NCBI GenBank assembly: GCA_049523215.1
Contig: JBEKNC010000003.1
Location: 263,394 to 327,393, forward strand
Direction of reading: 5' to 3'
Source: Bacteroidota bacterium
Lineage (GTDB): Bacteria > Bacteroidota > Ignavibacteria > UBA10030
DNA: 64,000 bases
The translations under genes and the position numbers were made by a program. A model generated the notes under the pieces. The model saw nothing but the letters and a program-made list of their open reading frames with translations, made no database searches and was not told the origin of the DNA. How positions within the stretch are numbered: the stretch's first letter is position 1; each line of letters begins with the position of its first letter. This document shows positions 4,954-61,252 of the stretch, piece after piece.

Positions 4954-6063
4954 TCACATCGTCTCCGCCTCTTCGGTGTACTCATCTAGAACTGTGTCTT
5001 TCATGTATTCCAGATGACCTTGCTTGTGTAATTCGATTAACGAATCATAAGAAAGGAAAGTGCATGATTCTACAAGTGGACCCTTTTCCAGCAAGCTGAA
5101 AACAGGTCTGGTAATTTCTTGAAATACTTTTTCTCTTCTTTCTGCTGGTGCTACAATGTGAGCTTTAATGTCAAGGTTAGGTTGTAAGGCAAGTAGATCC
5201 GCCATTCTGAGTATTCCAGAATATATCGATGTCGTATGTTCGACTTCAAAAGCTCTCACGATTGAAGTACGTCGTATCCAAAGCACGTCGATCTGTTCAA
5301 TCGTGCGTAAAGTTGTGTCATCATAATTCATAGGGAGCGACTCTAGCAATGACCCCCCTTGCGGTTTCCATATGTCTAAGACTCGAGACCTATCACTGCG
5401 TGGAACCCATATCTTCATCCCCATTTTTTCGCCAATCTCTGCGAGTAAGGCCTGAATTTGAATGGACTGACGATGTTCTGCAATATCCAGTTTTTGTTCT
5501 TCTATCTCCTCTTCTGGAATTGAAACTGATATTTGCTTATTTAGTGGCGTGCGAATACTATGACCCTGGATCTTCTTTATATCCTCTTCAGAAAGTTCAT
5601 AATTAATGCTATTATGGGTCTGTTCTTTCAATACTCTTTCAAGAAACTCTCCATCATCGTTGTCTAGCTTAAACAGGCTACCTCTCACTCTATTGGTCCA
5701 ACTCTTGTCGTGTTTTGAAAGAGATTTTGTAAAAGAAAGTGTATTCCATACAAGGTCCTCATGGATAGGTACCGCCTTATTTAAATCAAGCCACACATCT
5801 GTTTGAACTTTGAATCTTACTGTGAATGGATCATCTTCAGGAATAAATATTGGTGTATTATCATTAAAACATTTGCTGGTTACTTCAAGAATTCCAACCC
5901 ATCTAGATATTTTTGTTACATAACAGAGAAATTTATCTCCTGGTTTTATCTTATCAGCGGTATTGCGCTGCCTCGGACGGAATCCAGAAATGTCTCTATT
6001 GGATTTGCCAAATGTCTGATATGTCTCTGGTGAAAAAAGATCAATGTAATATGCCATCAACAA
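4954..6063 (-). CDS. EVE (PUA-like) domain protein with a C-terminal uncharacterised, possibly nuclease, domain; candidate modified-DNA reader/restriction component
   Basis: The N-terminal roughly 130 aa (AYYIDLFSPETYQTF...IKPGDKFLCYVTKISRWVGILEVTS) fit the EVE/PUA-like pattern: aromatic residues, GD, Y.....W.G...V. The C-terminal roughly 160 aa (QIDVLWIRRTSIVRAFEVEHTT...) show D/E strand motifs reminiscent of a restriction-endonuclease-like fold. The gene lies directly downstream of the Type IIG gene on the same strand, with a 33-bp gap. Confidence 0.55.
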   Translation of the reverse strand: MLMAYYIDLFSPETYQTFGKSNRDISGFRPRQRNTADKIKPGDKFLCYVTKISRWVGILEVTSKCFNDNTPIFIPEDDPFTVRFKVQTDVWLDLNKAVPIHEDLVWNTLSFTKSLSKHDKSWTNRVRGSLFKLDNDDGEFLERVLKEQTHNSINYELSEEDIKKIQGHSIRTPLNKQISVSIPEEEIEEQKLDIAEHRQSIQIQALLAEIGEKMGMKIWVPRSDRSRVLDIWKPQGGSLLESLPMNYDDTTLRTIEQIDVLWIRRTSIVRAFEVEHTTSIYSGILRMADLLALQPNLDIKAHIVAPAERREKVFQEITRPVFSLLEKGPLVESCTFLSYDSLIELHKQGHLEYMKDTVLDEYTEEAETM

Positions 6064-6096
6064 GCCTCTTTGGTTTCACTAATCCTGGAACAGTTA

Positions 6097-9000
6097 TTAA
6101 GAATTCTTATTTTCTACTTTCCCCTCCACAATCTTTATCTCTTCCTCCGTCAACTCGTACAATTTATACACGATATCATCTATCTTTTTATCTGTGGCGG
6201 CGATTTGACGCTCGACGGGCTCTTTCTCACTGTCAAAATGGGATTTCTGCAATTGCTTGTTGAGTTCCAACATTTTCTCCACGAGCGACACGAGGTCATC
6301 GTGCATTTTCTTTTCGATGGGATTATTAAAATCGATGGCGCGGATAGGAAGTCTTTTAGCATTTTGAATTAATATTTTCTGAAAAACTTCTTTTGATTGA
6401 TCCAAATACTTATGCTTATGGTAAAAATTTATCAATTTGGAATTCAGAATTCCAAGAATATATTTAAGGCTACATTCAGCATCGTTTTTTAACAAAAGAT
6501 TGAAGGCTATTTGAGCATTATATAGCTCCTCCTCGGTGTAGCCGGCATAAATTCTGAGAGGCGAGCCACTTACAATTTGTCTCACTAATATTCGTGGTTC
6601 AGAAAAAAACCTCTGCTCTCTTGGTGCACCTAACCAATCACCGTAACTAATCCATTCTTTCCTACCCCAATCAACTAAGTAACGACTTATATCTTCACCG
6701 GAAAGAATTTTCTTAAAGGTTTTGTCCTTCTTTTTTGTTGAATGAAAGACTCTCTTTTCAATTTGTGCTTGTGTATGTCCTTTGTATTTGTCATATGGCG
6801 TCAAGCCAAGAGAAAAACCACAAACCGCTTCAAGATCGCGACCTATTTTTGACATTTTGTCTATTAAATGCAAAGCATCTGCATTAGAGAAAATATTGAA
6901 AGTACTATAGTCCTCGTTGCTCCAACTCTTTTGATTTATAAAACTATGTTTAAGTGCCTTATCGAAATCTATATGTCCGAGTCTTTCTGTCCGGTCAAAA
7001 ATAATTATTTCACATTTATCGTCATTTAGTACTTTTCTAATGGCAATCGTCAAAACAATAGTTTCCGCAACGACATTCTCAAAAACGCCATCGGGCAACC
7101 TTACAATTTGTTCAACCGCTGCATCTGTTAAGATTTTCTTCCTAAGTTTTGAATATGTGCTTTGAGTTAATATTGAATTAGGTATAATATAACCGAACCT
7201 GCCCTTGTTTTTTATTATACTAAGTGCTCTCTCAATAAATACCGCATACACATTCATCCTGTTTTCGGTTGTTTTGTACTTTTTAAAATAGTAATCAACC
7301 AAAGAAGGATCCAACCCTTTAATATCGATCCATGGCGGATTCCCAATTACCACATCGAAGCCGCCAGTCTTCATAATCTCAGAAAACTCTATTTCCCAGT
7401 CGAATGGGTTTACTTTGTGCCTCGCTTCTTCATCGAACATTTCTCCCTGTGAAGTAAAATCCGTGCCGATAAGTGAATTGCCGCATTTAATATTCTTCGC
7501 GAGCGACGGCAGGTACACTTCTTTTAATGCAAGCGTCATTTGCGGGTTCAGCGTTTCGGCATTTTCTCCTTCAAGCACTTTGAGATACAGCGACATCTGC
7601 GTTACTTCCACCGCCTGCCGATCAATATCCACACCGTAAATATTGTTTACTAAAATATCCCGCTTCTTGCGCGGGGAGAGATGGTAATTGCCGTCTGCGT
7701 CTTTGTAAGAATCAGGGACATTGTTTTCTGTTTTAATATCTTCAGGGTGCGCGGTGTACCATTCAATGTGGTAATCGATCAGTGTCTGGAATGCGCCGAG
7801 CAGGAACGATCCGCTTCCGCAAGCGATGTCGATGATCTTTAATTTTGAAACTTGTTTTGGTGAGAGCCTAAGTCGTTTGATTTCTGTAGCCGACGTCGCT
7901 GACGTCGGTTCTTCCTTTTTCCCGCGATCATCGATCGCGGCTACAATTTTTTCCTCATACAACAATTTACCCAGCGTATTATCCACAATATACTTGACGA
8001 TGTACTGCGGCGTGTAATACACTCCGCCTGCCTTCCGCACTTCCGGCTTTTCTTTTATTATTACATTTTTTGGCGCAAGATGAATTGTCTTGCCGAGGAA
8101 TTTTTCATAAATGCTGCCGAGTATCTCCACGCCGATCTCATTGAAGTGATATGGCGAGAACGGATAATTCAAGTTCTCTAAAATCTTAATCAACACTTCA
8201 TCGCCAACTTCCAACTCTTCGCATTGATGCTGACTAAAGAGCAGCCCATTATACAATGCGCGCCGCTGTTTGAATAAATCATTCAACAGCGAATACAACG
8301 ACAGACCGCGGCGTTCTTTCCACATCCGCAAGATGGCAAGCAGTGTATTTTCAACTTCTATTTCCCTGTCTTCGCACACGCGAATGAAGACGATGCGGTC
8401 AAGAATGCGCTGGACCGCTTCGTTGAGCGTATAATCATTCAGGAACCGACGGTTCTTCGGATGTTTTGCAATATCTCGCGCCAACTCTTCGCGCCATTTA
8501 GATAAATCTTCCAAAAATTCACGGTCGAGTGCAAAGTCGCCGGTGCGCTTCAACATCATCTTTTTTGTCAGCGCTTCCAGGGAACCACCTGCGACAGCAT
8601 CGCGCGAGAATGTATCGAAGAGACGTTCGAATTGATCTAAGTAATGCTTATACGTCAGATCGAAATCTTTGATGATGCCTAATTTCGGTTTCTCAAACGC
8701 AGGTCGCTGGGTGCAATCGAATGTGCGGAATTCTTCAAAGTCTGTAAGTATCGCAAGCGGCACGCGCCCGGAAAATCCGTACCGTTTTACCTGAAAGATC
8801 GCCGATTGGCTTTTTACAAGATCGACGTAGGGCTTTTTTGCTTCAACAAAGAATTTTGTTTGCCCGCCAATGCGAAATCGGTAATCCGGTTTTTTAACTG
8901 CCTCTTTAGAATTGGCTTTGTATTCATCCTCGGCAATATAATCCAGAATGGAAGCGTACTCTTTATACTCTTTGCCAAGAGTTTCTTTTTTCGGAAAGAG

Positions 9001-9252
9001 CGGTTCTTGTTCCTTTACTTCTCTGGCAGTACTGCTCTTCATTCTCGATTCCGGTACGACCTCTTGACGGAATAGCGGTTGCATCAAACGATTATGCACA
9101 TCCCAACCAAGTGCTTCAAAAAACGGATCGATGAGCTGCTGGCGCGCCTGAGTCTCGTTAAACGATGATGATTTGAATTGATAGATGTTCTGATCAAAGA
9201 AATTGACAAGTTTTTCTATATTTTTTCGCGCTGATATTCTATCATTAGCCAT
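6097..9252 (-). CDS. Type IIG/IIL restriction-modification enzyme (MmeI-like): N-terminal PD-ExK nuclease, N6-adenine gamma-class methyltransferase and C-terminal target-recognition domain
   Basis: N-terminal ETQARQQLIDPFFEALGWDV, PDYRF...FFVEAKK (PD..ExK) and LAILTDFEEFRTFD align with the MmeI N-terminal nuclease. MTase motif I IIDIACGSGSFLLGAF and motif IV VVIGNPPWIDIKG are present. The length is 1051 aa. A low-complexity insertion (IVAAIDDRGKKEEPTSATSATEIKR) is encoded by a repeat element. Confidence 0.8.
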   Translation of the reverse strand: MANDRISARKNIEKLVNFFDQNIYQFKSSSFNETQARQQLIDPFFEALGWDVHNRLMQPLFRQEVVPESRMKSSTAREVKEQEPLFPKKETLGKEYKEYASILDYIAEDEYKANSKEAVKKPDYRFRIGGQTKFFVEAKKPYVDLVKSQSAIFQVKRYGFSGRVPLAILTDFEEFRTFDCTQRPAFEKPKLGIIKDFDLTYKHYLDQFERLFDTFSRDAVAGGSLEALTKKMMLKRTGDFALDREFLEDLSKWREELARDIAKHPKNRRFLNDYTLNEAVQRILDRIVFIRVCEDREIEVENTLLAILRMWKERRGLSLYSLLNDLFKQRRALYNGLLFSQHQCEELEVGDEVLIKILENLNYPFSPYHFNEIGVEILGSIYEKFLGKTIHLAPKNVIIKEKPEVRKAGGVYYTPQYIVKYIVDNTLGKLLYEEKIVAAIDDRGKKEEPTSATSATEIKRLRLSPKQVSKLKIIDIACGSGSFLLGAFQTLIDYHIEWYTAHPEDIKTENNVPDSYKDADGNYHLSPRKKRDILVNNIYGVDIDRQAVEVTQMSLYLKVLEGENAETLNPQMTLALKEVYLPSLAKNIKCGNSLIGTDFTSQGEMFDEEARHKVNPFDWEIEFSEIMKTGGFDVVIGNPPWIDIKGLDPSLVDYYFKKYKTTENRMNVYAVFIERALSIIKNKGRFGYIIPNSILTQSTYSKLRKKILTDAAVEQIVRLPDGVFENVVAETIVLTIAIRKVLNDDKCEIIIFDRTERLGHIDFDKALKHSFINQKSWSNEDYSTFNIFSNADALHLIDKMSKIGRDLEAVCGFSLGLTPYDKYKGHTQAQIEKRVFHSTKKKDKTFKKILSGEDISRYLVDWGRKEWISYGDWLGAPREQRFFSEPRILVRQIVSGSPLRIYAGYTEEELYNAQIAFNLLLKNDAECSLKYILGILNSKLINFYHKHKYLDQSKEVFQKILIQNAKRLPIRAIDFNNPIEKKMHDDLVSLVEKMLELNKQLQKSHFDSEKEPVERQIAATDKKIDDIVYKLYELTEEEIKIVEGKVENKNS
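6121..6142. repeat. Fragment of repeat module A (cccctccacaatctttatctc) overlapping the last codons of the Type IIG gene
   Basis: 22-nt identity to the 5' end of module A. It encodes ...EIKIVEG of the MTase C-terminus. Confidence 0.5.
7884..7946. repeat. 63-bp double-hairpin element (GACGTC-type hairpin plus ccgcgatcatcgatcgcgg hairpin) inserted in frame inside the Type IIG coding region; second copy at 52326-52386
   Basis: tagccgacgtcgctgacgtcggttcttcctttttcccgcgatcatcgatcgcggctacaa compared with the 52326 copy gctgacgtcattgacgtcggcattttcttccccgcgaccatcggtcgcggctacaa. Both have the same two-hairpin architecture and the shared tail cgcggctacaa. Confidence 0.75.
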
Positions 9253-9421
9253 TATCTGAGCCTTAAAAATCTCATCAGGTAATTCAATGGTTCAATGCCA
9301 TCGGTGAGCCGCATATCCCCTAATAGCATCTGCTAAGAATGTAGACAAACCTTCTATCTTGTTCAACTTTCATTTCCATTTCATTGCTGGAACAGTTTCA
9401 TATATTCCTTAAAAAATAAAT

Positions 9422-10675
9422 CTACACCCACAATGCTTGGATCGGAACGGCATAAAGATTCTTCTCAAACGGAATGACTTCATTTCCATCATATAATACG
9501 ATGCCGCGCAGAAACTTCTTTTTCATTTCAGCTTCCAGCATCTTCATCGTTTTAAATGACGATGCGTCGACCTTTTGCCCGCTTTTGACTTCAATACAAA
9601 CTATACTGCCATCACGGCGTTCAAGCAGAAAATCAATTTCCTGTCCGGTATGTGTCCGAAAATGATGTATCTGCGTCTGTGTTTTACACCATGAGATCAG
9701 TTTCAGCAATTCATTGAGAACAAATGACTCAACGGCTTTTCCCATAATCTCTCCGTCAGACCGAAGCCGCTGGTCATCTGCACCGAGAAGATACAGCATC
9801 AATCCGGTATCTGTCAGGTACAGCTTCGGTGTCTTAATCAGACGTTTGCTCAGATTCTTAGACCACGGCGTTACCAATCGCACAAGGAACGTTGTTTCAA
9901 GCAGGGTCATGTATCTTTTTAAGGTCGTCTGCGGAATAGTACTGCTATTGGACAACTCTGCAAAATTCAACAAAGAACCTGAACGGCTGGCAAGAAGGGC
10001 AAGCAGCCGAGGAAGCGCCGTTAATCCTTCGATGTGCATGAGATCCCGTATATCACGCTGCAAGATGGTTGTTACATACGAACTGAACCAGGAATTCCTG
10101 CGAGCCGGATCATTGCGCTGCAATGCTTCAAAATATCCGCCTTTTATCATCCGATCACTCAATAGATGACGCGTGATATTTTTGACGGAGTATTTGGGCA
10201 TTTTCTCTGCAAAGATATCCTCTACAAATGATCCCTTTGTTTCTTCGAGTTCACTTTGTGAAAATGGGTACAGGGAAAGTATCTCCATTCGCCCTGCAAG
10301 CGACTCAGAAAGTTTCGGTATGAGAAGGACATTTGCCGAACCCGTTAAAAGAAATTGGCCTGCCCTCTTTTTTTTATCTACGGAGGCTTTCAATGCAAGA
10401 AATATTTCCGGCGCCCTTTGGACTTCATCGATAATGAGCGGCTCTTGATAACCGGCTAAAAATCCTTCCGGATTATTATGCACAGCGGAGAGAACCACCG
10501 CATCGTCCAATGTGACATATCGAGCAGTATGCCCATGCGATGATAGCCACTCCACCAATGTGCTTTTTCCTACCTGCCGGGCTCCATTGAGCAAGACAAC
10601 AGGGCTATCCTTGAGAGCATCAAGTACATTCGGTGTAATAGTACGCTGTCCAATATTTAGCTGATAATCATCCAT
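9422..10675 (-). CDS. AAA+ ATPase of the DUF4143-containing (COG1373-like) family
   Basis: Walker A LLNGARQVGKST and Walker B LIIDEVQ. The C-terminal region has the conserved pattern of the DUF4143 archaeal-type ATPases (...HHFRTHTGQEIDFLLER...CIEVKSG). Confidence 0.8.
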   Translation of the reverse strand: MDDYQLNIGQRTITPNVLDALKDSPVVLLNGARQVGKSTLVEWLSSHGHTARYVTLDDAVVLSAVHNNPEGFLAGYQEPLIIDEVQRAPEIFLALKASVDKKKRAGQFLLTGSANVLLIPKLSESLAGRMEILSLYPFSQSELEETKGSFVEDIFAEKMPKYSVKNITRHLLSDRMIKGGYFEALQRNDPARRNSWFSSYVTTILQRDIRDLMHIEGLTALPRLLALLASRSGSLLNFAELSNSSTIPQTTLKRYMTLLETTFLVRLVTPWSKNLSKRLIKTPKLYLTDTGLMLYLLGADDQRLRSDGEIMGKAVESFVLNELLKLISWCKTQTQIHHFRTHTGQEIDFLLERRDGSIVCIEVKSGQKVDASSFKTMKMLEAEMKKKFLRGIVLYDGNEVIPFEKNLYAVPIQALWV

Positions 10676-14519: not shown

Positions 14520-15624
14520 TCACGCTGCAGCGGATTTCTCTTCCACTTTGAGAATTTCGTACAGCGTTGTACGTTGCGCCGGAATAAATCCTGATTCCCG
14601 AATCATATTCCTGCACTCTTCAGCATCGGTTGTATTGATGAAATTAGCAGCCGCATGCACATTCTCTTCAAGCAACGTGCCGCCAAAATCATCGGCGCCA
14701 AAGTGCAAAGCAATCTGGCCGATCTTCTTCCCTTCTGAGAACCACGACGCCTGGATATGTTCAAAATTGTCCAAATAAACGCGTGAGAAGGCGATCATTT
14801 GCAGATACCGTGTAAGATGTAGCATAATGCGGAATAATCTTCTCTAAAGGCGTGTTACCGGGCTTAAATGACCACGGAATGAAGGCAGTGAACCCGCCGG
14901 TCTCATCCTGCAGCTGGCGGATGGCCTCGAGATGCTCAACAATATCCTCATCTGTTTCGAGGTGCCCGTACATCATAGTTGCCGTTGTTTTGTAGCCAAT
15001 CTGCTGGGCAATGCGCATGACATTCAGCCAATCGGCAAAAGTGCCTTTTTTACTGCTGATCTTCCTCCTCACACGGTCAGAGAGAATTTCGGCGCCTCCG
15101 CCGGGAATAGACCGCAATCCTTTTTCCCACAATTTCTCCAGCACCCCCCGAATCGATAAACCGGAGATTTGCGACATCCCAATAATTTCCGATGTGGAAA
15201 AGAAATGCGGATAGATCTCCGGGACTTCCTTCACGGTACGTTCGACAAGTTCGAGATAATATTCAAATGGAATCGTCGGGTCAACTCCGCCCTGGAGAAG
15301 CACTGTCGTGATACCTTTCGACGCCGCTTCCTTAAATTTCTGAATCAGTTGGTCGCTCGACAGCCGGTACGCGCCTTCTTCGCCCGGATGCCGGTAGAAT
15401 GCGCAGAAGATACAATCGATGTTGCAGACATTTGAATAATTCGGATTGGTATCGAGCAAATAAGTTACCCATTGTTTCGGATTTTTTTGGAATCGGATTT
15501 CATTTGCCATGTCGCCGAGATCCAATAACTCCGCATTCCTCAACAGAAAGAATCCTTCTTCCCGCGAGATACGAACACCTTCCCGAACCTTCTGATAAAT
15601 TTCTTCCAATGTCATACCATACAT
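14520..15624 (-). pseudogene. Radical SAM menaquinone-biosynthesis enzyme (futalosine pathway, MqnC/MqnE-like) interrupted by a frameshift near 14805-14845
   Basis: The CNIDCIFCAF CxxxCxxC cluster lies in the 287-aa ORF (14761-15624). The C-terminal part (AFSRVYLDNFEHIQASWF...GADDFGGT, typical MqnC/E C-terminus) lies in a different frame (14520-14843). The two frames overlap, consistent with a single-base indel. Confidence 0.6.
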
Positions 15625-15773
15625 CCTACAAATTTATTTGATAACCCGATTGGTGTCAGGAATTTCTTCCTGACACTTTTCTATGTCATCCTCGTTCGCT
15701 TTTTCTGTCAGGATGTAAATCCTGACAGCACATCTAATGAAACGCATCCTACAAATTTATTTGATAACCCGAT
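15622..15773. mobile_element. MITE-like insertion (about 94 bp, two hairpins, ends tgtcagga/tcctgaca) flanked by a perfect 29-bp direct duplication (15622-15650 and 15745-15773)
   Basis: DR catcctacaaatttatttgataacccgat appears twice. The internal sequence is tggtgtcaggaatttcttcctgacac...ctgtcaggatgtaaatcctgacag. One DR copy carries the stop codon of gene 15749-16579, the other carries the start codon of gene 14761-15624. Confidence 0.6.
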
Positions 15774-16579
15774 GCTTTAAGATCTTTCAATAATCCGAAG
15801 CTCGCTTCTTCCAACTTGATCACGATCGATTTCGTCAACACGCCCGGCACGTTTTTTGGAAAGTCAACATCTGACATATGAAGAACACAAACACGATTTT
15901 TGCCAAGCTTTCCGACGAAATGCCCAAGCTCGAACATTGCATACGCAAGATCGTTCGGGTTGATGATAAAGAAGGCAAACCTTACGCCCGCATCAACCTG
16001 AAGCGTCTCAAGCGGAAGCATCTGTCCGTGTTGACGTTCGATATCAATTTCCTCTATTCCAATTTCTCCGAGAAATTGCAGCAACTGCACACGGAGCGGA
16101 TCATCTGCTTCCCCGACAACATACACTTTACTGGCATGCGCAGCAGCCTGCGGATGTGCAGAAGGTTGAGCGGGTGCCGTCGCTGCAGGTTTCGGAGGCG
16201 GTTTCAATATTCGGACTCCTCCGGTGTCTGTTGCAGTCTGAACTGTCGGCGTCTGAAGATCCATTGCCGGAGCAGCCGGAGCCGATGCGAGTTCTGGAGA
16301 AGCCTTCACTTTTTCGTACAGTTCACGCAAACAGTTGAGAATCAACTGGGCGGATGGCTGAAAAAAGAATCCGCCTTTTTTATCCCCAAGAATTTTTTGT
16401 TTGTACGGAAATCCAATTGGTCCGGATGATTCGAGCGTTTCCAAACATGCTTTGCGCCAATCCAGATATTTATTTTGTAATCGTGCATTATACCCGGAGG
16501 CCTCGAATCCTCCTTGCGGCGCTAATTGAGTTCCGCTGGCTATTAACTCTTCATATTTTTTTAGTAATTGTTCTGGCAT
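15749..16579 (-). CDS. Hypothetical protein with a C-terminal TIR-like nucleotide-binding domain (COG4271/SLOG-type), a Pro/Ala-rich linker and an N-terminal helical domain
   Basis: The C-terminal region KVYVVGEADDP...FAFFIINPNDLAYAMFELGHFVGKLGKNRVCVL matches the conserved strand-turn pattern of predicted TIR-like nucleotide-binding proteins (fElGyFiGklG..rv). The assignment is from recalled family consensus and not verified by search. Confidence 0.45.
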   Translation of the reverse strand: MPEQLLKKYEELIASGTQLAPQGGFEASGYNARLQNKYLDWRKACLETLESSGPIGFPYKQKILGDKKGGFFFQPSAQLILNCLRELYEKVKASPELASAPAAPAMDLQTPTVQTATDTGGVRILKPPPKPAATAPAQPSAHPQAAAHASKVYVVGEADDPLRVQLLQFLGEIGIEEIDIERQHGQMLPLETLQVDAGVRFAFFIINPNDLAYAMFELGHFVGKLGKNRVCVLHMSDVDFPKNVPGVLTKSIVIKLEEASFGLLKDLKASGYQINL

Positions 16580-16611
16580 AGCTCTTCACACGAATAGTAT
16601 CTCAACTTCTT

Positions 16612-16650
16612 ACTGCTCAGAGTCATCGCGATCCCGATAAATCGGGATCG
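16612..16650. promoter_or_regulatory. Near-perfect 17-bp-arm palindrome upstream of the TIR-like gene
   Basis: gtcatcgcgatcccgat aaa tcgggatcgcaatgac, located about 35 bp upstream of the start at 16579. Confidence 0.3.
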
Positions 16651-16816
16651 CAATGACGTGTTCCTTTCTTTTTGATCACTCCCAGATTTCCAGAGAACAA
16701 AACATGAGGTTACACACGTTCCAATTTATCAATTTCTAAAAGCAGTTCTTGAAATTCTTCTAATTTCAAATCTGTACTACATCTATATGCGTCATACCTT
16801 TGAGGCGTTTAATCTA

Positions 16817-17710
16817 TTATCCGATAAAAAGTCCCACAGCGAGTAAAATCGGTGTTGTCAAATTGATAACTACGTTTAGGCCCATCGAGGGAATCAGGGA
16901 AGGGATATTTTCAGCGTTTTGGTATGCACCCCTATAGGCTTTCCAAGCAGGGATAACTGTCAAGAGAGCAAGCAGACTATAACGAGGCAGTAAAACAAAA
17001 AACACACCGATCACTACCGAAACATACGCAAGCAGCAAGAAGACGCCATATAGTACGGCACTGGCTTGCCGCCCCATGGTAATCGGGAAATGTTTTCGTC
17101 CGATGCTTTTATCGGCATCCACATCAGGAAATTGATTGAGCAGCAGCAAGTCGCTCACAAGAAATGTAGGAGCAAGAGATGCAACAAAAGATGTCCAAGT
17201 GTATGAACCTGTCAAACAGAAGTGCGTCCCCATAACCATGAGAATGCCGAAACCCAATCCCGGCGCTATCAAACAGAGGATCGGATTATACGCCCACCAA
17301 ATAGTATAGGTCACTAATAAGATCAATCCGATGGTGCCAAGCGGCAATAAGAGGAAACCTCGCAGCCATATGAAATAGAACCCCACTACCGCAGTAATAA
17401 CAAAAGTGATTATGGCAAGATAAAGAGTGCTTTTGTTCATCTCCGGATGTGCCTGAAGTGTGCCGCTGCCGCCGCTGAAGGGTGTGCGTTGAGTTTTAGC
17501 GTCAAGTCCGCTTTTAAAATCAAAATATTCGTTAAATGCGTTAGCGCTGATATGACTTGCGAGTCCACCAATAAGAATTATAAGAATCTGGATCCAGCTT
17601 ATTTCATGGGTTTGCCAGAAGGCCGTTCCCGCGCCTACAGCAACACACGCAGGTGGCAGGATTAAAAACGGTACACGCATAGGGCCAAGCAGTGATTTCA
17701 TTTTGTTCAT
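16817..17710 (-). CDS. menA: 1,4-dihydroxy-2-naphthoate (or futalosine-pathway equivalent) polyprenyltransferase, UbiA superfamily
   Basis: Multi-TM UbiA-type protein with NEYFDFKSGLD (N/DxxxD motif) and a second Asp-rich motif DVDADK. Confidence 0.75.
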   Translation of the reverse strand: MNKMKSLLGPMRVPFLILPPACVAVGAGTAFWQTHEISWIQILIILIGGLASHISANAFNEYFDFKSGLDAKTQRTPFSGGSGTLQAHPEMNKSTLYLAIITFVITAVVGFYFIWLRGFLLLPLGTIGLILLVTYTIWWAYNPILCLIAPGLGFGILMVMGTHFCLTGSYTWTSFVASLAPTFLVSDLLLLNQFPDVDADKSIGRKHFPITMGRQASAVLYGVFLLLAYVSVVIGVFFVLLPRYSLLALLTVIPAWKAYRGAYQNAENIPSLIPSMGLNVVINLTTPILLAVGLFIG

Positions 17711-17788: not shown

Positions 17789-19858
17789 TTACTTCACAGT
17801 CGCTCCTGTGGATATTTCCGATTGGACACCAACGAGTGTTAATGTGCCGGATTCGTCGCTAGCGGCAAGAATCATGCCTTGCGACTCCTGCCCCATGAGC
17901 TTCGCAGGTTGGAGGTTCGCGACAACTACGATCAACTTTCCGATTAAATCCTCTGGTTTGTACTGCTGGGCGATGCCTGCAACCACCTGGCGCCTTTCGT
18001 TTCCAATTTCAACTTGCAGCTTTATAAGCTTTTCAGACTTGGGTACTTTTTCTGCTTCGATAATTCGTCCGACGCGAAGATCAACCTTTTTAAAATCATC
18101 CATCGTGATCGTAGGTTTCAGAGGAGAAATTGGAACGGCTTCAGGATTGTCTCCGCCTTCGAGGAATTTCACAATCTCGTCGATCTGCTTATCCTCAATT
18201 TTGGTTATGAGAATTTCCGGTTTGTTCAGCTGGTGTCCTTTTTTGATTCTGAATTCAGATGCAGAATCCCATCCATCTTCTCTCAATGGAATATCGAGAT
18301 TGAGGAGTTTCCATATTTTTTCGGAAGTGGCAGGTACAACAGGTTCCAACAAAATTGCAAGAGACCGCACTATTTGGATTGCAACATGAAGAGTCGTTGA
18401 GCAGCGTTCCGGACTCGATTTCAGTGTCTTCCACGGCTCGCTGTCATTAAAATACTTGTTCGCGGCGCGGGAGAGATTCATCACTTCCATCAATCCTTCG
18501 CGAAAGCTGTAATGTTCAAACAACTCACCAATTTTAGACGGTGCTTGTTTCACTGCTGCAATAACTTCTTCGTCAAGCTTATTGAGCGTGCCAAGCTTCG
18601 GTACAATGCCTCCGAAATTCTTATCTATGAACGCAATCGTGCGATTGACAAAGTTCCCGGTAATGTCTGCCAATTCATTATTGATGCGTGCCTGAAAATC
18701 TTTCAGATAAAAATCACTGTCGCGAGTTTCAGGCAGATTGACAGCGAGAGCGTACCGCAACATATCCGCCGGAAAGAATTTCAGAAATTCTTGAAGATTA
18801 ATTCCCCAGCCGCGGCTCTTTGAAAACTTCTGACCTTCAAAATTGAGAAATTCGTTTGCAGGCACATTTTCCGGCAGTACATAGTGATCGGTATTGCCGT
18901 CATTCCAGGCCATCAGCATCGCTGGAAAAACGATGCAATGAAACACCACATTGTCTTTGCCGATAAATGCAACATACTTTGTGTCTTCATTCTGCCAATA
19001 TTCCTTCCACGCTTCCGGTTTTCCGTGAACTGCCGCCCATTCTTTGCCGGATGAAATATACCCGAGCACTGCATCGAACCAGACGTAAATTACTTTATCT
19101 TCGTATCCTGCAACAGGCACGTGTACACCCCAGTTCAGATCGCGTGTCACCGCACGGTCTTTCAATCCATCTTTGAACCATCCTTCGCAATATCGAAGAA
19201 CATTGTCTTTCCAACCATCTCTTTTGTTCCGTTCGGCGATGTACGATTCCAATCGCGACTGATATTTCCCCAGCGGAAAGTACCAATGTGTTGTTTCCCT
19301 CACAACCGGTGTCGTTCCGCACAACTTGCACTTTGGATCAATGAGTTCAGCTTGATCCAGCCACGTACCGCAATTCTCACATTGATCACCGCGCGCCTGT
19401 GTCGATTTACATTTGGGGCAAGTGCCTTCAACATAACGGTCGGCAAGAAACATGGAATCTTGTAAGCAATACAACTGCAGCTCCTTCTTCTCGACCACAA
19501 TATTGCGTTTGTGGAATTCCCCAAAAAATTCTTTCGCTGTTTCGTGATGCAAAGGAAGCGAAGTACGCGAGTAATTATCAAAACTCATTTCGAATGCTTC
19601 GAATGCCGCTTTATTTGCTGGATGGTAGCGGTCGATGATGTTCTTTGGCGTCGTCTTTTCTTTTTCCGCTGAAACAGTAATGGCAACACCGTGCTCATCG
19701 GAGCCGCAGAGGAAGAGAACATCACGTTTCTTCATGCGTTGATAACGGGCATAGATATCTGCCGGCAAATAAGCGCCTGCAAGATGTCCAAGGTGCAGAT
19801 ATCCGTTTGCATACGGCAATGCTGCTGTAATAAGGATTCGTTTGAAAGGAGACTTCAT
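17789..19858 (-). CDS. metG: Methionine--tRNA ligase with C-terminal tRNA-binding domain
   Basis: HLGH (PYANGYLHLGHLAG) and KFSKS motifs, zinc knuckles CPKC/CENC, C-terminal EMAP/tRNA-binding domain. Confidence 0.9.
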   Translation of the reverse strand: MKSPFKRILITAALPYANGYLHLGHLAGAYLPADIYARYQRMKKRDVLFLCGSDEHGVAITVSAEKEKTTPKNIIDRYHPANKAAFEAFEMSFDNYSRTSLPLHHETAKEFFGEFHKRNIVVEKKELQLYCLQDSMFLADRYVEGTCPKCKSTQARGDQCENCGTWLDQAELIDPKCKLCGTTPVVRETTHWYFPLGKYQSRLESYIAERNKRDGWKDNVLRYCEGWFKDGLKDRAVTRDLNWGVHVPVAGYEDKVIYVWFDAVLGYISSGKEWAAVHGKPEAWKEYWQNEDTKYVAFIGKDNVVFHCIVFPAMLMAWNDGNTDHYVLPENVPANEFLNFEGQKFSKSRGWGINLQEFLKFFPADMLRYALAVNLPETRDSDFYLKDFQARINNELADITGNFVNRTIAFIDKNFGGIVPKLGTLNKLDEEVIAAVKQAPSKIGELFEHYSFREGLMEVMNLSRAANKYFNDSEPWKTLKSSPERCSTTLHVAIQIVRSLAILLEPVVPATSEKIWKLLNLDIPLREDGWDSASEFRIKKGHQLNKPEILITKIEDKQIDEIVKFLEGGDNPEAVPISPLKPTITMDDFKKVDLRVGRIIEAEKVPKSEKLIKLQVEIGNERRQVVAGIAQQYKPEDLIGKLIVVVANLQPAKLMGQESQGMILAASDESGTLTLVGVQSEISTGATVK

Positions 19859-49904: not shown

Positions 49905-51011
49905 TAAGAATGTCAGGTTTGCGTATGTTAGAAGTCCTCAAAAGAGAAATGACTTCTGGAATGGGACAAACCATAACAATGAGCATATAAGAGAAATGGA
50001 AACCCGATTGAAAATGATAGTACGGAACAAAGAAGGCAAAATCATCGTGTTAGAAGCAGCCGAGAGCATACATCTCAGCGAGCGGCAGATGTATCGTGTG
50101 TTAGCCCGCTATCGGACACAGGCAGAAGCAGGACTGGTGCATCGACTCCGCGGGGCACGAGTTCTCATCGAGGATATTCGGAAGAGAACGCGGAAGAAAG
50201 TATTTCGATTGTTCCGAGAGCAGTATTCAGATTATGATCCAACGCTGTTTTCCGAGAAGTGAGAGGAATATCACGCTTTGCGCATTTCACGGCAAACGCT
50301 CACTCGGTGGTTGGTCAAGGAAAGTCTCTGGGCGCCCAGACGCAAGAAGCGAACGGTGTCAGACAATGGGCTCACTCATTCAATTCGACGGTAGTGATCA
50401 CGATTGGTTTGAGGGACGTGGTCCGGCGCGGTGTTGTTTGTTGGTTGCCATTGACGATGCCTCGGGAAGTGTGATGCTGCGTTTTACCAAGGAAGAAGAT
50501 ACGGCAAGCGTCCCCTTTTGAGTTCTGACATAGATACATTCAACACAGAGGCATTCCTGCAGAAATCTACACAGATGGCGGTACGATCTATTTTGACACC
50601 AAAAATCCTAAACGTTTGACGCAGTTTGGCTGTGTTCTTAAAGCACTGGGCATTCATCATATCCATGCCTATTCTCCTCAGGCAAAGGAGCGGGTGAAAC
50701 GATCCAATCGAACGTATCAAGATCACCTGTTGAAGGCGTTACGCGAACAGGGCATTTCCAGCATCAAAGATGCAAATCGGTTTTTAGAGGAACTCTACTG
50801 TACTCAACACAATATGCGTTTTGCACAGTGCGAAGGACTTTCAGACATTCACCGCCCTGCTAATGGGATTGATCTCGACAACATCTTTTGCTTCGAAGAT
50901 ACTCGGAAGGTGTATAACAACTATACCATTACTCTGCACAGTCAGTTTATTCAGTTACTTCGCTCAGAAGCACCTCTGCCGCCTCCGCGCTCTACGCTGC
51001 TCCTGCGGCAA
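49905..51011 (+). mobile_element. Degraded IS, IS1202 (ISNCY)-like; DDE transposase split over three frames and truncated at the 3' end
   Basis: The ORFs 49996-50262, 50234-50521 and 50616-51014 together resemble one rve-type transposase: HTH ...LSERQMYRVLARYRTQAEAGLVHRLRGAR, then ...QFDGSDHDWFEGRGP..LLVAIDDASG, then ...HAYSPQAKERVKRSNRTYQDHL. The family call is from memory of ISNCY/IS1202 transposases. Confidence 0.65.
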
Positions 51012-51290
51012 TAGCTCGATAGTCGCATCATACGCCGGCCTGCCGTAGAACGATTGAAAACTGACCCAACCGATGATTTCACTATTTTTGTTTTCGACAA
51101 CTTATAAAGGACGTTTGTTGGGAGTGTGTTCATGAAACCATCGTATTCTGCTTTCTACTGAGATAGGTTCTGTGTCGGCAGTGACCATCCTTGAAGAGAT
51201 TGTCGAATTATATATCTCGACAATCCTTTCCAGGTCTTGAAGATTTGCGTCTCTATATATAAGTTCATCTATAGCTGTAATTGTCTTCAC
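51012..51290 (-). pseudogene. GNAT (PAT-like) gene fragment: canonical N-terminus plus the 172-bp repeat, with a premature stop
   Basis: [62 protein letters not shown]. It is identical to gene 42456-42932 over the repeat except for a ccc to ctt change that creates the stop. It ends at the IS junction. Confidence 0.8.
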
Positions 51291-60442: not shown

Positions 60443-61252
60443 TTACATTGTTGATATATGTTGTTGTTGAAAAAACTCTGCCGATTTCAATGGTTTTAAT
60501 CCATCAAAGTGATATCGCAAGTACAAACGTAATAGCTCGTTCATTTCGTTCCCTACACGCGCGTCGAACTCAAGAGTACTGAGACTTGAGAGTTGCGCAT
60601 GTACAAGACGGCGAACAATTTGCAATCCCTGTACTGAAAGTGTCGTGAATGCGATACTCTGATCACTGTCATGTACCGCAGAATCATTTGGCGTGCAGCA
60701 CTTATTGCAAAACACCGCGCCACGAACAATCTGAAATGCAACTTGCCTTTCTCCGTTGCCGAGAAGGACGGGTTTTCCGCACTCGCCGCAAGTATCAAAA
60801 TTCGGTGCATAGCCGAACAATGCTGCAAGCCGCAGCTGGAACGCCTGTAAATACGTTTCATAATTTTTCGTGCTGGCATTCAATGCGCTCAATGTTTCAA
60901 CAAGCAGGGCAAACATCGCCGGAGTGCGTTCTTCATGGTGCGTTACCTGATCGATAAGTTCTAAAACCGACAGACCAGTAGACATCCGATCTAAATCTTC
61001 AGTGAGATTTCGAAAGGAGTCAATAGAATCACATTGTGAAATCAAATGGAGATCGCGATGTTCTTTTTTATAGATGAGAAGCATCGAATGAGAGAGCGGT
61101 TCCAATGCAGAGCCGAATTTATTTTTTGCGGATCTCGCACCTTTCGCAATACCTTTCAACTTGCCATATTCCTTTGAGTAAAACGTGACGATTTTACTCG
61201 TGTCGCGGTACTTCATCGATCTCAGAACTATCACCTCGGTCTTAACCAGCAC
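60443..61252 (-). CDS. recO: DNA repair protein RecO
   Basis: N-terminal OB-fold signature (EVIVLRSMKYRDTSKIVTFYSKEYGKLKGIAKGARS) and C-terminal Cys cluster CGECGK...CNKCC. Confidence 0.8.
   Translation of the reverse strand: MLVKTEVIVLRSMKYRDTSKIVTFYSKEYGKLKGIAKGARSAKNKFGSALEPLSHSMLLIYKKEHRDLHLISQCDSIDSFRNLTEDLDRMSTGLSVLELIDQVTHHEERTPAMFALLVETLSALNASTKNYETYLQAFQLRLAALFGYAPNFDTCGECGKPVLLGNGERQVAFQIVRGAVFCNKCCTPNDSAVHDSDQSIAFTTLSVQGLQIVRRLVHAQLSSLSTLEFDARVGNEMNELLRLYLRYHFDGLKPLKSAEFFQQQHISTM

What the first reader, a model, noticed from the sequence alone, without database searches (positions are those of the whole stretch)
15749..16579. Stand-alone TIR-like (COG4271/SLOG-type) nucleotide-binding protein, originally in an operon with a futalosine-pathway radical SAM gene
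The C-terminal roughly 110 residues fit the conserved pattern of predicted TIR-like nucleotide-binding proteins (beta-strand VYVVG, FAFFIINPND, ELGHFVGKLGKNRVCVL). They are preceded by a P/A-rich linker and an uncharacterised helical N-domain. TIR-like/SLOG domains are typical of nucleotide-signalling conflict systems. Here the gene sits between menA and an MqnC/E-like gene and was stop/start-coupled to the latter. It could be a moonlighting nucleotide- or nucleoside-processing step in a futalosine-type pathway (the intermediates are nucleoside derivatives). Alternatively it is a defence or signalling gene embedded in a housekeeping operon. Either would be unusual.
Basis: partly seen in the sequence, partly recalled or inferred. 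Interest (0 to 1): 0.6.

Follow-up and report, generated by a model that had tools for sequence, protein, structure and literature searches.

The report
Immune-type TIR gene entrenched in menaquinone operon
This is a real gene for a remodelled relative of stand-alone bacterial TIR "defence-candidate" proteins; it landed between two vitamin-K2 (menaquinone) synthesis genes in an ancestor of the Ignavibacteria, has been kept by selection ever since, even where the pathway has decayed as in this genome, and is not a step of that pathway.

Summary
The ORF at 15749-16579 (-) is real and intact. It has three parts: an N-terminal four-helix bundle, a P/A-rich disordered tether, and a C-terminal CAP12/Pycsar-class TIR domain (Pfam PF10137, above threshold). 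It aligns end to end with PADLOC "PDC-S35" stand-alone TIR defence candidates. Compared with them it carries a ~55-residue linker insertion and a 14-residue deletion in the TIR CC loop.

Full-length orthologues occur in 76 species-level Ignavibacteria-type MAGs. They usually sit between an mqnE::MqnA/D-type (VitK2_biosynth) fusion gene and mqnC in the futalosine operon. That linkage does not reflect a shared function.
- At least 7 lineages, including this window, deleted or pseudogenised every mqn gene yet kept the TIR gene under purifying selection (domain dN/dS about 0.01-0.17).
- Sister lineages have mqnE directly next to mqnC with no TIR gene.
- The same junction carries a RelB/ParE module or other cargo elsewhere.

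The catalytic Glu (E217) is invariant in the 72 aligned members. The SfSTING-type NAD-binding Arg and Asn, the trans Asp and the CC-loop dimer insert are lost.

The "futalosine enzyme" reading is refuted. The "defence/signalling gene embedded in a housekeeping operon" reading is closest, but the protein looks re-purposed. Its biochemical function remains inferred.

The parts
15749..16579 (-). Whole gene: 276-aa protein made of a four-helix N-domain, a tether and a TIR domain (remodelled PDC-S35-type)
   Evidence: ORF. 415 homologues, the top 120 full length. 76 genome loci. dN/dS well below 1. GC 0.469, like its neighbours at 0.457-0.478.
16283..16579 (-). N-terminal four-helix bundle (residues 1-99) with the invariant loop G23 G24 .. 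G29 Y30 N31 .. Q35 .. W41 R42, shared with PDC-S35 proteins
   Evidence: AlphaFold2 model of the domain alone: pLDDT 90.7, pTM 0.83. Invariant columns in an alignment that includes PDC-S35-type sequences. Collinear BLASTP to P0139. No significant PDB Foldseek match. dN/dS 0.014-0.17.
16136..16282 (-). P/A-rich disordered tether (residues 100-148), an insertion relative to PDC-S35 proteins
   Evidence: pLDDT below 50 over residues 101-147. About 55-residue gap in the BLASTP alignment to P0139. Fast evolving, with dN/dS 0.09-1.26. Replaced by PK/PE-rich or charged helical spacers in distant members.
16190..16213 (-). Conserved short linear motif R-I/V-L-K-P-P-P-K (residues 123-130) inside the tether
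   Evidence: R123, L125, K126, P127, P128, P129 and K130 are invariant among 20 diverse orthologues. Coordinates. Its partner is unknown.
15749..16135 (-). C-terminal CAP12/Pycsar-class TIR domain (residues 149-276 plus stop) with a shortened CC loop
   Evidence: PF10137, E=3.4e-08. PDC-S35 HMMs, E=1.4e-17 over residues 140-275. Best PDB Foldseek hits are TIR-STING 9lmq/9lmr, probability 1.00, E=6e-3. 14-residue deletion between strand C and helix C relative to P0139.
15929..15931 (-). Codon of E217, the counterpart of the TIR catalytic glutamate (SfSTING E84)
   Evidence: Aligned to the Glu of Cap12 'VVFEFG' and to P0139/7un8. Invariant in 72/72 family members. The role of E84 is taken from PMC9402430.
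15622..15773 (.). Junction lesion: a 94-bp insert with two hairpins (15651-15744) flanked by perfect 29-bp direct repeats (15622-15650 and 15745-15773). The repeats duplicate the TIR stop / mqnC start junction.
   Evidence: Repeat finder. The hairpin motif TGTCAGGA..TCCTGACA occurs twice here and nowhere else in the window. Absent from L009-L012. Folds at -48.4 kcal/mol, z=-5.5. No Rfam match.
14520..15624 (-). mqnC pseudogene (cyclic dehypoxanthinyl futalosine synthase), split into ORFs 14761-15624 and 14520-14825 by a +1 insertion at 14808-14823
   Evidence: TIGR03699 covers model positions 2-253 and 255-342 in two ORFs. DNA alignment with intact L009 shows the +1 nt. Relatives L010, L011 and L012 carry further indels and deletions at or near the same site. 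Coordinates.
16817..17710 (-). MenA-like UbiA prenyltransferase occupying the place of the ancestral mqnP-ubiX-ubiD-mqnE::MqnA/D-type block
   Evidence: NF004749, E=4e-34, below cut-off. Relatives carry mqnP-ubiX-ubiD-mqnE fusion here. The same cassette is found in L010-L012, L017, L018, L021 and L025.
17789..19858 (-). metG, the conserved upstream anchor of the locus in Ignavibacteria-type genomes
   Evidence: tblastn synteny across loci.

Best explanation
The gene encodes a remodelled, vertically entrenched descendant of the PADLOC 'PDC-S35' family of stand-alone TIR proteins, which combine a four-helix N-terminal sensor-like domain with a CAP12/Pycsar-class TIR domain.

Shown. One copy sits in the junction between the mqnE::MqnA/D-type (VitK2_biosynth) fusion gene and mqnC of the futalosine operon across the Ignavibacteria group and a sister lineage. 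It was formerly translationally coupled to mqnC. It evolves under purifying selection. It is functionally separable from menaquinone synthesis: it survives precise loss of all flanking mqn genes (as in this window, where mqnC is a pseudogene and a menA-like cassette has replaced mqnP-mqnE), and sister lineages run the same operon without it. The junction is also a recurrent landing site for selfish or defence-type cargo.

Inferred. The gene entered the operon once and hitch-hiked on its transcription, and it now gives a benefit that does not depend on quinone synthesis. Mechanistically it is a 'tamed' or re-purposed TIR. Helix C and the catalytic Glu (E217) are invariant, and a new set of polar residues is fixed, so it probably still binds, and likely cleaves, an N-glycosidic nucleotide or nucleoside ligand under control of the conserved N-domain. 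It has lost the CC-loop dimer insert, the Arg and Asn that hold the ADP-ribose part of NAD+, and the trans-acting Asp of the SfSTING-type site. It has gained a flexible tether. It is therefore unlikely to work as a canonical filament-activated NAD+-depleting suicide effector.
For: - Domain identity: PF10137 above threshold; PDC-S35 HMMs at E=1.4e-17; TIR-STING is the top PDB fold match.
- Homology over both domains to bona fide PDC-S35 proteins. BLASTP to P0139 gives E=1e-28 and is collinear. P0139, P0319 and P0290 match PDC-S35 model PDLC05005 end to end at about 1e-72. Invariant N-domain residues are shared.
- PDC-S35-type relatives are scattered over unrelated phyla, and one lies beside RM, RmuC and AAA_15/21 genes.
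- Entrenchment: 76 species-level MAG loci, all Ignavibacteria/Bacteroidota-type, carry the gene at the same position. Distant members (35% identity) sit in the same mqnE-TIR-mqnC triad with different outer flanks.
- Independence from mqn (a): 20 genome loci plus the window are mqn-less. They fall in at least 7-8 separate places on both the TIR and MetG trees. Domain dN/dS there is 0.01-0.17, the same range as in mqn-intact pairs. The mqnA/D paralogue on the other strand is also gone, while UbiE and Amidohydro_2 stay. mqnC decays progressively in the window, L010, L011 and L012 while the TIR gene stays intact.
- Independence from mqn (b): at least 7 metagenome loci with the same mqnE fusion have mqnC directly adjacent and no TIR gene, and they nest among TIR+ lineages in the MqnC tree.
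- Hotspot: RelB/ParE in L106 and DUF6994+ORF6N in L118 at the same junction, and a hairpin insert in the window.
- Remodelling: E217 is 72/72 invariant. The SfSTING residues map as R78->L211, N80->Y213, D110->variable position 243, and the CC-loop insert is deleted.
Against: - No biochemical or genetic data exist for this family or for PDC-S35, which is only a 'candidate' in PADLOC. No paper was found.
- The scans were seeded with the TIR protein or with MqnC, so genomes that lost both are invisible. 'Always spared' therefore cannot be claimed.
- TIR-less mqn loci could carry the gene elsewhere in the genome.
- The trees are neighbour-joining without support values, and MAGs can be chimeric.
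- Active-site mapping rests on sequence alignment to SfSTING, not on a structure. The full-length model is only moderately confident (pLDDT 71.5).
- The very strong conservation of the N-domain, the strict Glu conservation, and the pathway-ordered position (mqnE, then TIR, then mqnC) with no mqnB in the cluster would also fit a metabolic enzyme.
- Three distant members have Ala in place of the Glu, which argues against catalysis being the universal function.
Confidence: 0.5

Rival explanations
1. Futalosine-pathway enzyme. The TIR-like domain is an N-glycosidase that replaces MqnB/MTAN, cleaving (amino)futalosine to dehypoxanthinyl futalosine between the MqnE and MqnC steps. A broader version would be an MTAN-like adenine-nucleoside hydrolase that also clears 5'-deoxyadenosine from radical-SAM enzymes.
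For: - The gene order follows the pathway order: mqnE::MqnA/D-type fusion, then TIR, then mqnC. The gene is tightly spaced with or coupled to mqnC.
- The fullest clusters (L087, L092) contain every step except a nucleosidase, and the TIR gene is the only unassigned conserved member.
- No PNP_UDP_1/MtnN-like gene was found in any fetched locus (the query sequence was recalled from memory).
- TIR and NDT-type folds are N-glycosidases with a Glu on helix C (PMC9402430).
- Loss of the residues that bind the ADP part of NAD+ would suit a nucleoside-sized substrate.
- The window encodes mtnA plus a PfkB kinase, a salvage route that needs an upstream nucleosidase.
Against: - Double dissociation. The gene is kept under purifying selection after complete loss of mqn genes in at least 7 lineages, and it is absent from sister operons that keep mqnE and mqnC adjacent.
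- Three distant members still sit in the triad but have Ala for the catalytic Glu.
- The architecture (sensor-like helical domain, long disordered tether) and the PDC-S35 ancestry are atypical for a pathway enzyme.
- All occurrences can descend from one insertion, so the synteny is a single event, not repeated evidence.
- The broader MTAN-analogue version escapes the first objection but has no positive evidence.
Confidence: 0.08
2. Unchanged defence gene. It is simply a PDC-S35-type abortive-infection TIR NADase that happens to be parked in an operon. A phage cue sensed by the N-domain triggers TIR oligomerisation and NAD+ depletion.
For: - Homology over both domains to PDC-S35 candidates, with conserved N-domain signature residues and the catalytic Glu.
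- Relatives lie in a defence-island context.
- A variable RM/ATPase island lies about 3 kb downstream in the window and in relatives.
- The presence/absence polymorphism among sister lineages, and two possibly disrupted copies (L070, L081), fit an accessory gene.
- The same junction accepts a TA module.
Against: - Three of the four named polar residues of the SfSTING NADase site, and the CC-loop dimer insert, are lost. They are retained in canonical PDC-S35 proteins.
- The PDC-S35 HMMs match only the C-terminal half, at 62 bits against about 240 bits for true members.
- The gene has stayed in one locus across class-level divergence with a very conserved 'sensor' (dN/dS as low as 0.014), unlike the sporadic, laterally moving PDC-S35 genes.
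- PDC-S35 itself has never been shown to defend.
Confidence: 0.2
3. Non-catalytic adaptor or scaffold. The TIR domain serves as a protein-protein interaction module, the N-domain and the PPPK motif dock other partners, and the Glu is structural.
For: - Distant members P0133, P0136 and P0137 keep the N-domain and a recognisable C-domain in the same operon position but have Ala for the Glu and escape Pfam detection.
- The N-domain is the best-conserved part.
- The spacers vary in length and are extended (PK/PE-rich or charged helix).
- A conserved linear motif lies in the tether.
- The NAD-binding residues are lost.
Against: - The Glu is invariant in all 72 aligned members, together with a cluster of fixed polar residues (D210, H220, H234, D237, E257, E258), which looks like an active or ligand site.
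- No partner is identifiable.
- The retention after loss of every neighbouring mqn gene removes the obvious candidate partners.
Confidence: 0.15
4. Not a functional gene: a chance ORF or a decaying remnant, like its neighbour mqnC.
For: It lies in a locus that is visibly decaying in this genome (mqnC frameshift, junction insert).
Against: - The ORF is intact here and in 70+ species.
- dN/dS against close mqn-less relatives is 0.10-0.23 overall and about 0.1 in both domains.
- An identical protein was recovered from independent assemblies.
Confidence: 0.01

Closest known systems
PADLOC PDC-S35 (phage-defence candidate, subtype model PDLC05005): stand-alone proteins of about 255 aa, 'predicted nucleotide-binding protein containing TIR-like domain' (COG4271)
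   Same: Same two domains in the same order. The four-helix N-domain carries the GG..SGYN..Q..WR signature and the TIR domain is PF10137 with the FELGxFxGKLG helix C. BLASTP is collinear at E=1e-28.
   Different: - A tether of about 55 residues is inserted.
- 14 residues of the CC loop, including the R-x-N of 'RARQN', are deleted.
- 'HGHD' after strand A is replaced by 'GE(A)DD'.
- The 'PSD' Asp is lost.
- Only the C-terminal half matches the HMMs (62 against about 240 bits).
- It is vertically inherited inside a biosynthetic operon, instead of being scattered across phyla and placed near defence genes.
Cap12 / TIR-STING (SfSTING; PDB 7un8, 9lmq) and PycTIR: CBASS and Pycsar TIR NADase effectors, the founding members of PF10137
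   Same: Same Pfam family. Best structural match. Helix C with the catalytic Glu aligns (E84 to E217), as does the following GxxG..V..L strand.
   Different: - No STING or cNMP sensor domain and no cyclase neighbour.
- NCBIfam Cap12 scores 15 bits against a cut-off of 450.
- The R78, N80 and D110 equivalents and the beta-D'/beta-E' CC-loop insert, which build the NAD+ pocket and the dimer, are missing.
MqnB (futalosine hydrolase) / MTAN (MtnN), the PNP_UDP_1-family nucleosidases of the futalosine pathway
   Same: The gene occupies, in gene order, the slot between the MqnE and MqnC steps where such a nucleosidase acts. The TIR fold is also an N-glycosidase fold.
   Different: No sequence relationship. 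Presence and absence are uncoupled from the pathway in both directions.
Dictyostelium TirB/C/D: CAP12-class TIR domains domesticated after transfer to a eukaryote (bioRxiv 10.64898/2026.04.30.722052)
   Same: An immune-type PF10137 TIR kept long-term in a new genomic setting, with new N-terminal or regulatory context and a conserved catalytic Glu.
   Different: Those proteins keep the CC-loop beta-hairpin, and TirC is a potent NADase. Here the hairpin is deleted, the host is a bacterium, and the setting is an operon.

Membership tests
Pfam PF10137 CAP12/Pycsar TIR domain | Profile score above the curated gathering threshold | tested here: met
   34.0 bits against 24.7, E=3.4e-08, residues 151-250, profile positions 1-115 of 119. 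All top 120 homologues carry PF10137 except two.
Pfam PF10137 CAP12/Pycsar TIR domain | Catalytic glutamate on helix C (SfSTING E84) | tested here: met
   E217 aligns with the Glu of Cap12. It is invariant in 72/72 members. It is lost only in the distant P0133, P0136 and P0137.
Pfam PF10137 CAP12/Pycsar TIR domain | CC-loop beta-hairpin insertion (beta-D'/beta-E') that extends the TIR dimer; named as distinctive in PMC9402430 and bioRxiv 2026.04.30.722052 | tested here: not met
   14-residue deletion between strand C and helix C relative to PDC-S35 P0139. The model goes from strand 202-206 straight into helix 208-225.
Pfam PF10137 CAP12/Pycsar TIR domain | Polar NAD+-pocket residues (SfSTING R78, N80, and D110 in trans) | tested here: not met
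   By transitive alignment these become L211, Y213 and a variable position 243 (N/K/G/S/T). Canonical PDC-S35 proteins keep R, N and D.
Pfam PF10137 CAP12/Pycsar TIR domain | NAD+ glycohydrolase activity | not testable with these tools
   Needs a recombinant protein assay.
PADLOC PDC-S35 | End-to-end match to a PDC-S35 model | tested here: not met
   Only residues 140-275 match (model positions 109-258 of 264, 62 bits). P0139, P0319 and P0290 match positions 4-262 at 240-247 bits.
PADLOC PDC-S35 | Homologous N-terminal domain | tested here: met
   Collinear BLASTP that includes residues 6-86. Invariant G23 G24 G29 Y30 N31 Q35 W41 R42 across both groups.
PADLOC PDC-S35 | Sporadic, laterally mobile distribution and defence-island context | tested here: not met
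   One fixed locus in 76 related species. By contrast, PDC-S35 relatives occur in Brocadiia, Hodarchaeales, Elusimicrobiota, Rheinheimera and NC10, and one lies beside RM/RmuC/AAA_15 genes.
PADLOC PDC-S35 | Anti-phage activity | not testable with these tools
   PDC-S35 is only a candidate system. No paper mentions it.
CBASS Cap12 / Pycsar PycTIR effector | Cyclic-nucleotide sensor domain and an adjacent cyclase gene | tested here: not met
   The N-domain has no Pfam match and no significant structural match. The neighbours are metG, men/mqn genes and a hypothetical gene. NCBIfam Cap12 scores 15 bits against 450.
MqnB / MTAN (futalosine-pathway nucleosidase) | PNP_UDP_1-family sequence | tested here: not met
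   The only Pfam hit is PF10137.
MqnB / MTAN (futalosine-pathway nucleosidase) | Phyletic coupling to the pathway: present where mqn genes are, dispensable where they are lost | tested here: not met
   Kept under selection in mqn-less lineages. Absent from sister mqnE-mqnC operons.
MqnB / MTAN (futalosine-pathway nucleosidase) | Hydrolysis of (amino)futalosine | not testable with these tools
   Needs an enzyme assay.
SLOG / LOG superfamily | Match to LOG/SLOG profiles | tested here: not met
   No such family at E<=1 in Pfam or NCBIfam. Profile-profile (HHpred-type) comparison was not available.

The most novel reading that the evidence does not exclude
An immune-type TIR protein has been domesticated within bacteria into a housekeeping enzyme. 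The example proposed is an adenine-nucleoside N-glycosidase that clears radical-SAM by-products (5'-deoxyadenosine, MTA) and can also turn aminofutalosine into dehypoxanthinyl futalosine. This would explain three things: its birth between the two radical-SAM mqn genes, the loss of the residues that bind the dinucleotide part of NAD+, and its retention after the pathway is lost.
Probability: 0.12. Interest if true: 0.85.

Novelty: new variant of a known kind. Interest (0 to 1): 0.55.

Why it matters
Bacterial TIR proteins are studied almost only as phage-defence suicide enzymes that come and go by lateral transfer. Here a member of that class has sat in one chromosomal slot, inside a core biosynthetic operon, through class-level divergence.

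Three features make it stand out.
- It outlives the operon around it.
- It keeps its catalytic glutamate.
- It has shed the residues and the loop that make the canonical NAD+-depleting dimer.

This is a natural, well-replicated case for asking how a dangerous immune enzyme is tamed and what non-canonical chemistry or signalling a TIR domain can take on in bacteria. There are at least 7 independent operon losses and several independent TIR losses to compare.

It also carries a warning for genome-context inference. A strikingly conserved, pathway-ordered neighbourhood can be a single frozen insertion rather than evidence of shared function.

Tried and rejected
- N-domain fold: Foldseek with the confident N-domain model gave only generic four-helix bundles at E>1 (NarX sensor, HPt). 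No family could be assigned.
- TIR domain against PDB sequences: phmmer at E<=10 gave only Cap12 and a chance-level glutaminase hit. A resemblance I recalled between the shortened CC loop and nucleoside 2-deoxyribosyltransferases is therefore unsupported and was dropped.
- MTAN search: tblastn with an E. coli MtnN sequence recalled from memory found nothing in any fetched locus. This is uninformative, because MTAN need not be linked.
- Whole-genome checks: I could not test whole genomes for mqnB/mtnN, for a second mqn set, or for joint loss of TIR and mqn.
- RNA: the Rfam scan of 15400-17000 found nothing.
- Promoters and terminators: the sigma-70 and terminator scan was at background level and does not suit Bacteroidota promoters.
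- Literature: searches for TIR+futalosine, futalosine+Ignavibacteria, mqnB 'missing' and PDC-S35 found nothing relevant.
- Flavodoxin idea: I considered a flavodoxin-like electron donor for the two radical-SAM enzymes, because flavodoxin-fold proteins appear among weak fold hits. I rejected it. Sequence homology is to TIR, and there is no FMN-binding loop motif.
- TIR remnants: a relaxed tblastn search of TIR-less junctions found no TIR remnants.
Full report
**1. Observation**

The ORF 15749-16579 (-) starts at ATG and encodes 276 aa. Pfam assigns residues 151-250 to PF10137, the CAP12/Pycsar-effector TIR domain, with E=3.4e-08 and 34 bits against a gathering score of 24.7. It gives nothing else at E<=1, so there is no SLOG/LOG hit. 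NCBIfam shows only sub-threshold Cap12 matches around residues 214-254.

PADLOC's phage-defence-candidate PDC-S35 models match residues 140-275 at E=1.4e-17. AlphaFold2 on a 20-sequence alignment gives four helices (residues 2-99), a disordered stretch (101-147, pLDDT below 50) and an alpha/beta domain (151-269), with mean pLDDT 71.5. The best PDB Foldseek hits are the TIR domains of TIR-STING 9lmq/9lmr (probability 1.00, E about 6e-3), followed by generic flavodoxin-like folds.

- Upstream is a MenA-like UbiA prenyltransferase (16817-17710), which scores below the NCBIfam cut-offs.
- Downstream is a radical-SAM gene whose best match is MqnC (TIGR03699). It is split into two ORFs.
- Alignment with the intact relative L009 shows the ancestral junction ...TTG TAG G ATG..., that is, TIR stop then mqnC start.
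- In the window that junction is interrupted by a 94-bp two-hairpin insert flanked by a perfect 29-bp direct repeat.

**2. The family**

A search of 5.8 billion proteins returned 415 homologues. The best 120 are nearly all full length and 60-100% identical, and those with a source name are labelled Bacteroidota/Ignavibacteriales MAGs. A scan of one genome per GTDB species found 76 distinct loci, all in Ignavibacteria-type MAGs.

In a 72-sequence alignment the N-domain and the TIR domain are densely conserved. E217 (FELG), G219, G226, P245 and E258 are invariant. The tether is variable apart from the motif R-[VI]-L-K-P-P-P-K.

An exhaustive profile search of 1.84 billion representatives found few further full-length members. 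P0121, P0125-P0127 and P0130 keep the Glu. P0133, P0136 and P0137 have Ala instead and escape Pfam. Below these lie thousands of proteins that match only the TIR part.

**3. Origin**

P0139 and relatives share the N-domain signature (GG..SGYN..Q..WR) and have a canonical TIR domain (HGHD, TPDD, RARQNVIxELG, LPSD). P0139, P0319 and P0290 match PDC-S35 model PDLC05005 end to end at about 1e-72.

BLASTP of the window protein against P0139 is collinear over both domains (E=1e-28). It shows two structural changes in our family:
- an insertion of about 55 residues, which is the tether;
- a 14-residue deletion between strand C and helix C.

PDC-S35-type proteins are scattered over unrelated phyla (Brocadiia, Hodarchaeales, Elusimicrobiota, Rheinheimera, NC10) at 45-52% identity. 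One lies beside an RM system, RmuC and an AAA_15/21 ATPase. The window protein is therefore a derived member of a laterally mobile, defence-candidate family. Note that PDC-S35 has no experimental record.

**4. Neighbourhood**

In most loci the order is holB-metG-mqnP(UbiA)-ubiX-ubiD-[mqnE::VitK2_biosynth fusion]-TIR-mqnC. On the opposite strand lie Amidohydro_2, a second VitK2_biosynth gene (MqnA/D-type) and ubiE.

Distant members (35% identical to ours) sit in the same mqnE-TIR-mqnC triad with other outer flanks. In L085, L089 and L092 the upstream flank is Iso_dh. In L093 it is a Por_Secre_tail gene.

**5. Why it is not a pathway gene**

(a) *The TIR gene persists without mqn.* Twenty genome loci plus the window lack the mqn genes.
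- metG is followed directly by the TIR gene, or by a menA-like gene and then the TIR gene. L025 has metG-TIR-menA.
- In these loci the opposite-strand MqnA/D-type gene is also gone, while Amidohydro_2 and ubiE remain.
- On both the TIR tree and a MetG tree these loci fall in at least 7-8 separate places.
- Within mqn-less clades, dN/dS is 0.03-0.17 for the N-domain and 0.01-0.12 for the TIR domain. These values match those of mqn-intact pairs. The tether runs at 0.09-1.26.
- In the window's own clade mqnC is decaying stepwise: +1 nt here, +2 nt in L011 and L012, and large deletions in L010 and L012. The TIR gene stays intact throughout.

(b) *mqn persists without the TIR gene.* A metagenome scan seeded with MqnC returned 80 loci.
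- Among those carrying the same mqnE fusion and a MqnC 65-85% identical to the reference, 6 have the TIR gene.
- At least 7 (L099, L100, L104, L112-L115) have mqnE directly adjacent to mqnC, with a gap under 60 bp.
- Others have different inserts.
- In the MqnC tree the TIR-less loci nest among TIR+ lineages.
- No TIR gene occurs next to the more distant, unfused mqnE/mqnC pairs.

(c) *The junction is a landing site.* L106 carries a RelB-like/ParE toxin-antitoxin pair there. L118 carries DUF6994 plus an ORF6N-domain gene. The window carries a hairpin element.

(d) *Occasional decay.* Two copies look disrupted: L070 has an in-frame stop and L081 a frameshift.

Together these results give a double dissociation. 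They fit one ancestral insertion whose position is preserved because the operon is preserved.

**6. Mechanism (inferred)**

Morehouse et al. 2022 (PMC9402430) define the SfSTING TIR site as follows:
- the catalytic E84 on helix C;
- R78 and N80, which hold the phosphodiester and the adenosine ribose of NAD+;
- D110, supplied by the dimer mate;
- a beta-D'/beta-E' insertion in the CC loop that extends the dimer.

Transitive alignments map these residues onto our protein. E84 corresponds to E217, which is invariant. R78 corresponds to L211. N80 corresponds to Y213. D110 corresponds to position 243, which varies (N/K/G/S/T). The CC-loop insertion falls in the 14 deleted residues. Canonical PDC-S35 proteins keep all of these features.

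At the same time a new polar set is fixed in our family: D210, Y213, H220, H234, D237, K255, E257 and E258. The N-domain alone models confidently (pLDDT 90.7) as a four-helix bundle with no significant structural relative.

I read this as a re-purposed TIR. It probably still binds, and perhaps cleaves, an N-glycosidic ligand, gated by the N-domain across a flexible tether. It is not the canonical filament NADase. The Glu-less distant members show that a non-catalytic role cannot be excluded. None of this is tested biochemically.

**7. Caveats**

- The scans were seeded with the TIR protein or with MqnC, so joint losses are invisible.
- TIR-less operons might have the gene elsewhere in the genome.
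- The trees are neighbour-joining without support values.
- The genomes are MAGs.
- The active-site mapping is by sequence only.
- Two structure libraries were unavailable.

**8. Verdict**

The finding is real and more interesting than an ordinary annotation, but not in the way first proposed. It is a new, vertically entrenched and remodelled variant of a known kind, the PDC-S35/CAP12-class TIR proteins. It was embedded in the futalosine operon and has outlived it in some lineages. The futalosine-enzyme reading is improbable (about 0.08). A broader 'domesticated housekeeping nucleosidase' reading is not excluded (about 0.12) and would be notable if true.

Noticed in passing
window 15622-15773: A 94-bp insert (15651-15744) carries two 10-bp hairpins built on TGTCAGGA..TCCTGACA. 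It is flanked by a perfect 29-bp direct repeat that duplicates the TIR-stop/mqnC-start junction. It folds far better than shuffles (z=-5.5), has no Rfam match, and is absent from close relatives. Single copies of the hairpin occur in L060 and L070. It looks like a small MITE/REP-like element with an unusually long target duplication.
   Followed up: partly
window 14520-15624: mqnC is a pseudogene, with +1 nt at 14808-14823. Relatives L010, L011 and L012 have different indels at the same spot plus further deletions. The closely related L009 has an intact gene and a full mqn operon. The futalosine pathway is being lost in this clade.
   Followed up: yes
window 16817-17710; L010-L012, L017, L018, L021, L025: A MenA-like prenyltransferase cassette replaces mqnP-ubiX-ubiD-mqnE. 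It is 92-96% identical between clades whose MetG is about 85% and whose TIR protein is 63-67% identical. This suggests the cassette moved laterally or by recombination between lineages, possibly marking a switch of menaquinone pathway.
   Followed up: partly
L106:2438-2924 and L118:4403-6001: The same mqnE|mqnC junction carries a RelB-like/ParE toxin-antitoxin pair in L106. In L118 it carries DUF6994 plus an ORF6N-domain gene. The junction is a recurrent insertion hotspot inside an operon.
   Followed up: partly
window 4954-10675: A variable defence-type island lies about 3 kb downstream of the locus. It holds a 1051-aa MmeI-like RM fusion (HSDR_N, N6_Mtase, MmeI_Mtase, Eco57I, TaqI_C), an AAA_14/DUF4143 ATPase and a 369-aa protein with a weak PRK00809-type match. 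Relatives L003 and L004 carry a different Type ISP enzyme and an HATPase/DUF4325 gene at the same place.
   Followed up: no
window 61242-63211: mtnA (S-methyl-5-thioribose-1-phosphate isomerase, 458 bits) overlaps a PfkB-family sugar kinase. This is a possible MTA/5'-deoxyadenosine salvage pair, which would need an upstream nucleosidase. No MTAN was seen in the window.
   Followed up: no
L070:5252-6110 and L081:10001-10790: Two orthologues look disrupted although their mqn operons are intact. L070 has an in-frame stop. L081 has a frameshift with loss of the first TIR strand. These could be real decay or assembly error. The apparent break in L080 is a run of N.
   Followed up: partly
P0133 (L092), P0136, P0137 (L089): Distant family members still sit between mqnE and mqnC but have Ala in place of the catalytic Glu. 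Their spacers are much longer, charged or helical, and they have no Pfam TIR hit.
   Followed up: partly
loci L024, L034, L048, L051, L063 and others (opposite strand downstream of TIR): A 307-aa Amidohydro_2 gene and ubiE are retained next to the TIR gene in mqn-less loci, while the MqnA/D-type gene between them is deleted. The role of the Amidohydro_2 gene in these clusters is unknown.
   Followed up: no
window 16622-16657: A 17-nt inverted repeat (94% complementary, 2-nt loop) lies 43-78 bp upstream of the TIR start, in the 237-bp gap after the menA-like gene. It could be a terminator or a regulatory hairpin.
   Followed up: no
window 50234-51014: Short ORFs resemble fragments of a transposase/integrase (judged by eye only). 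This may be an IS remnant.
   Followed up: no
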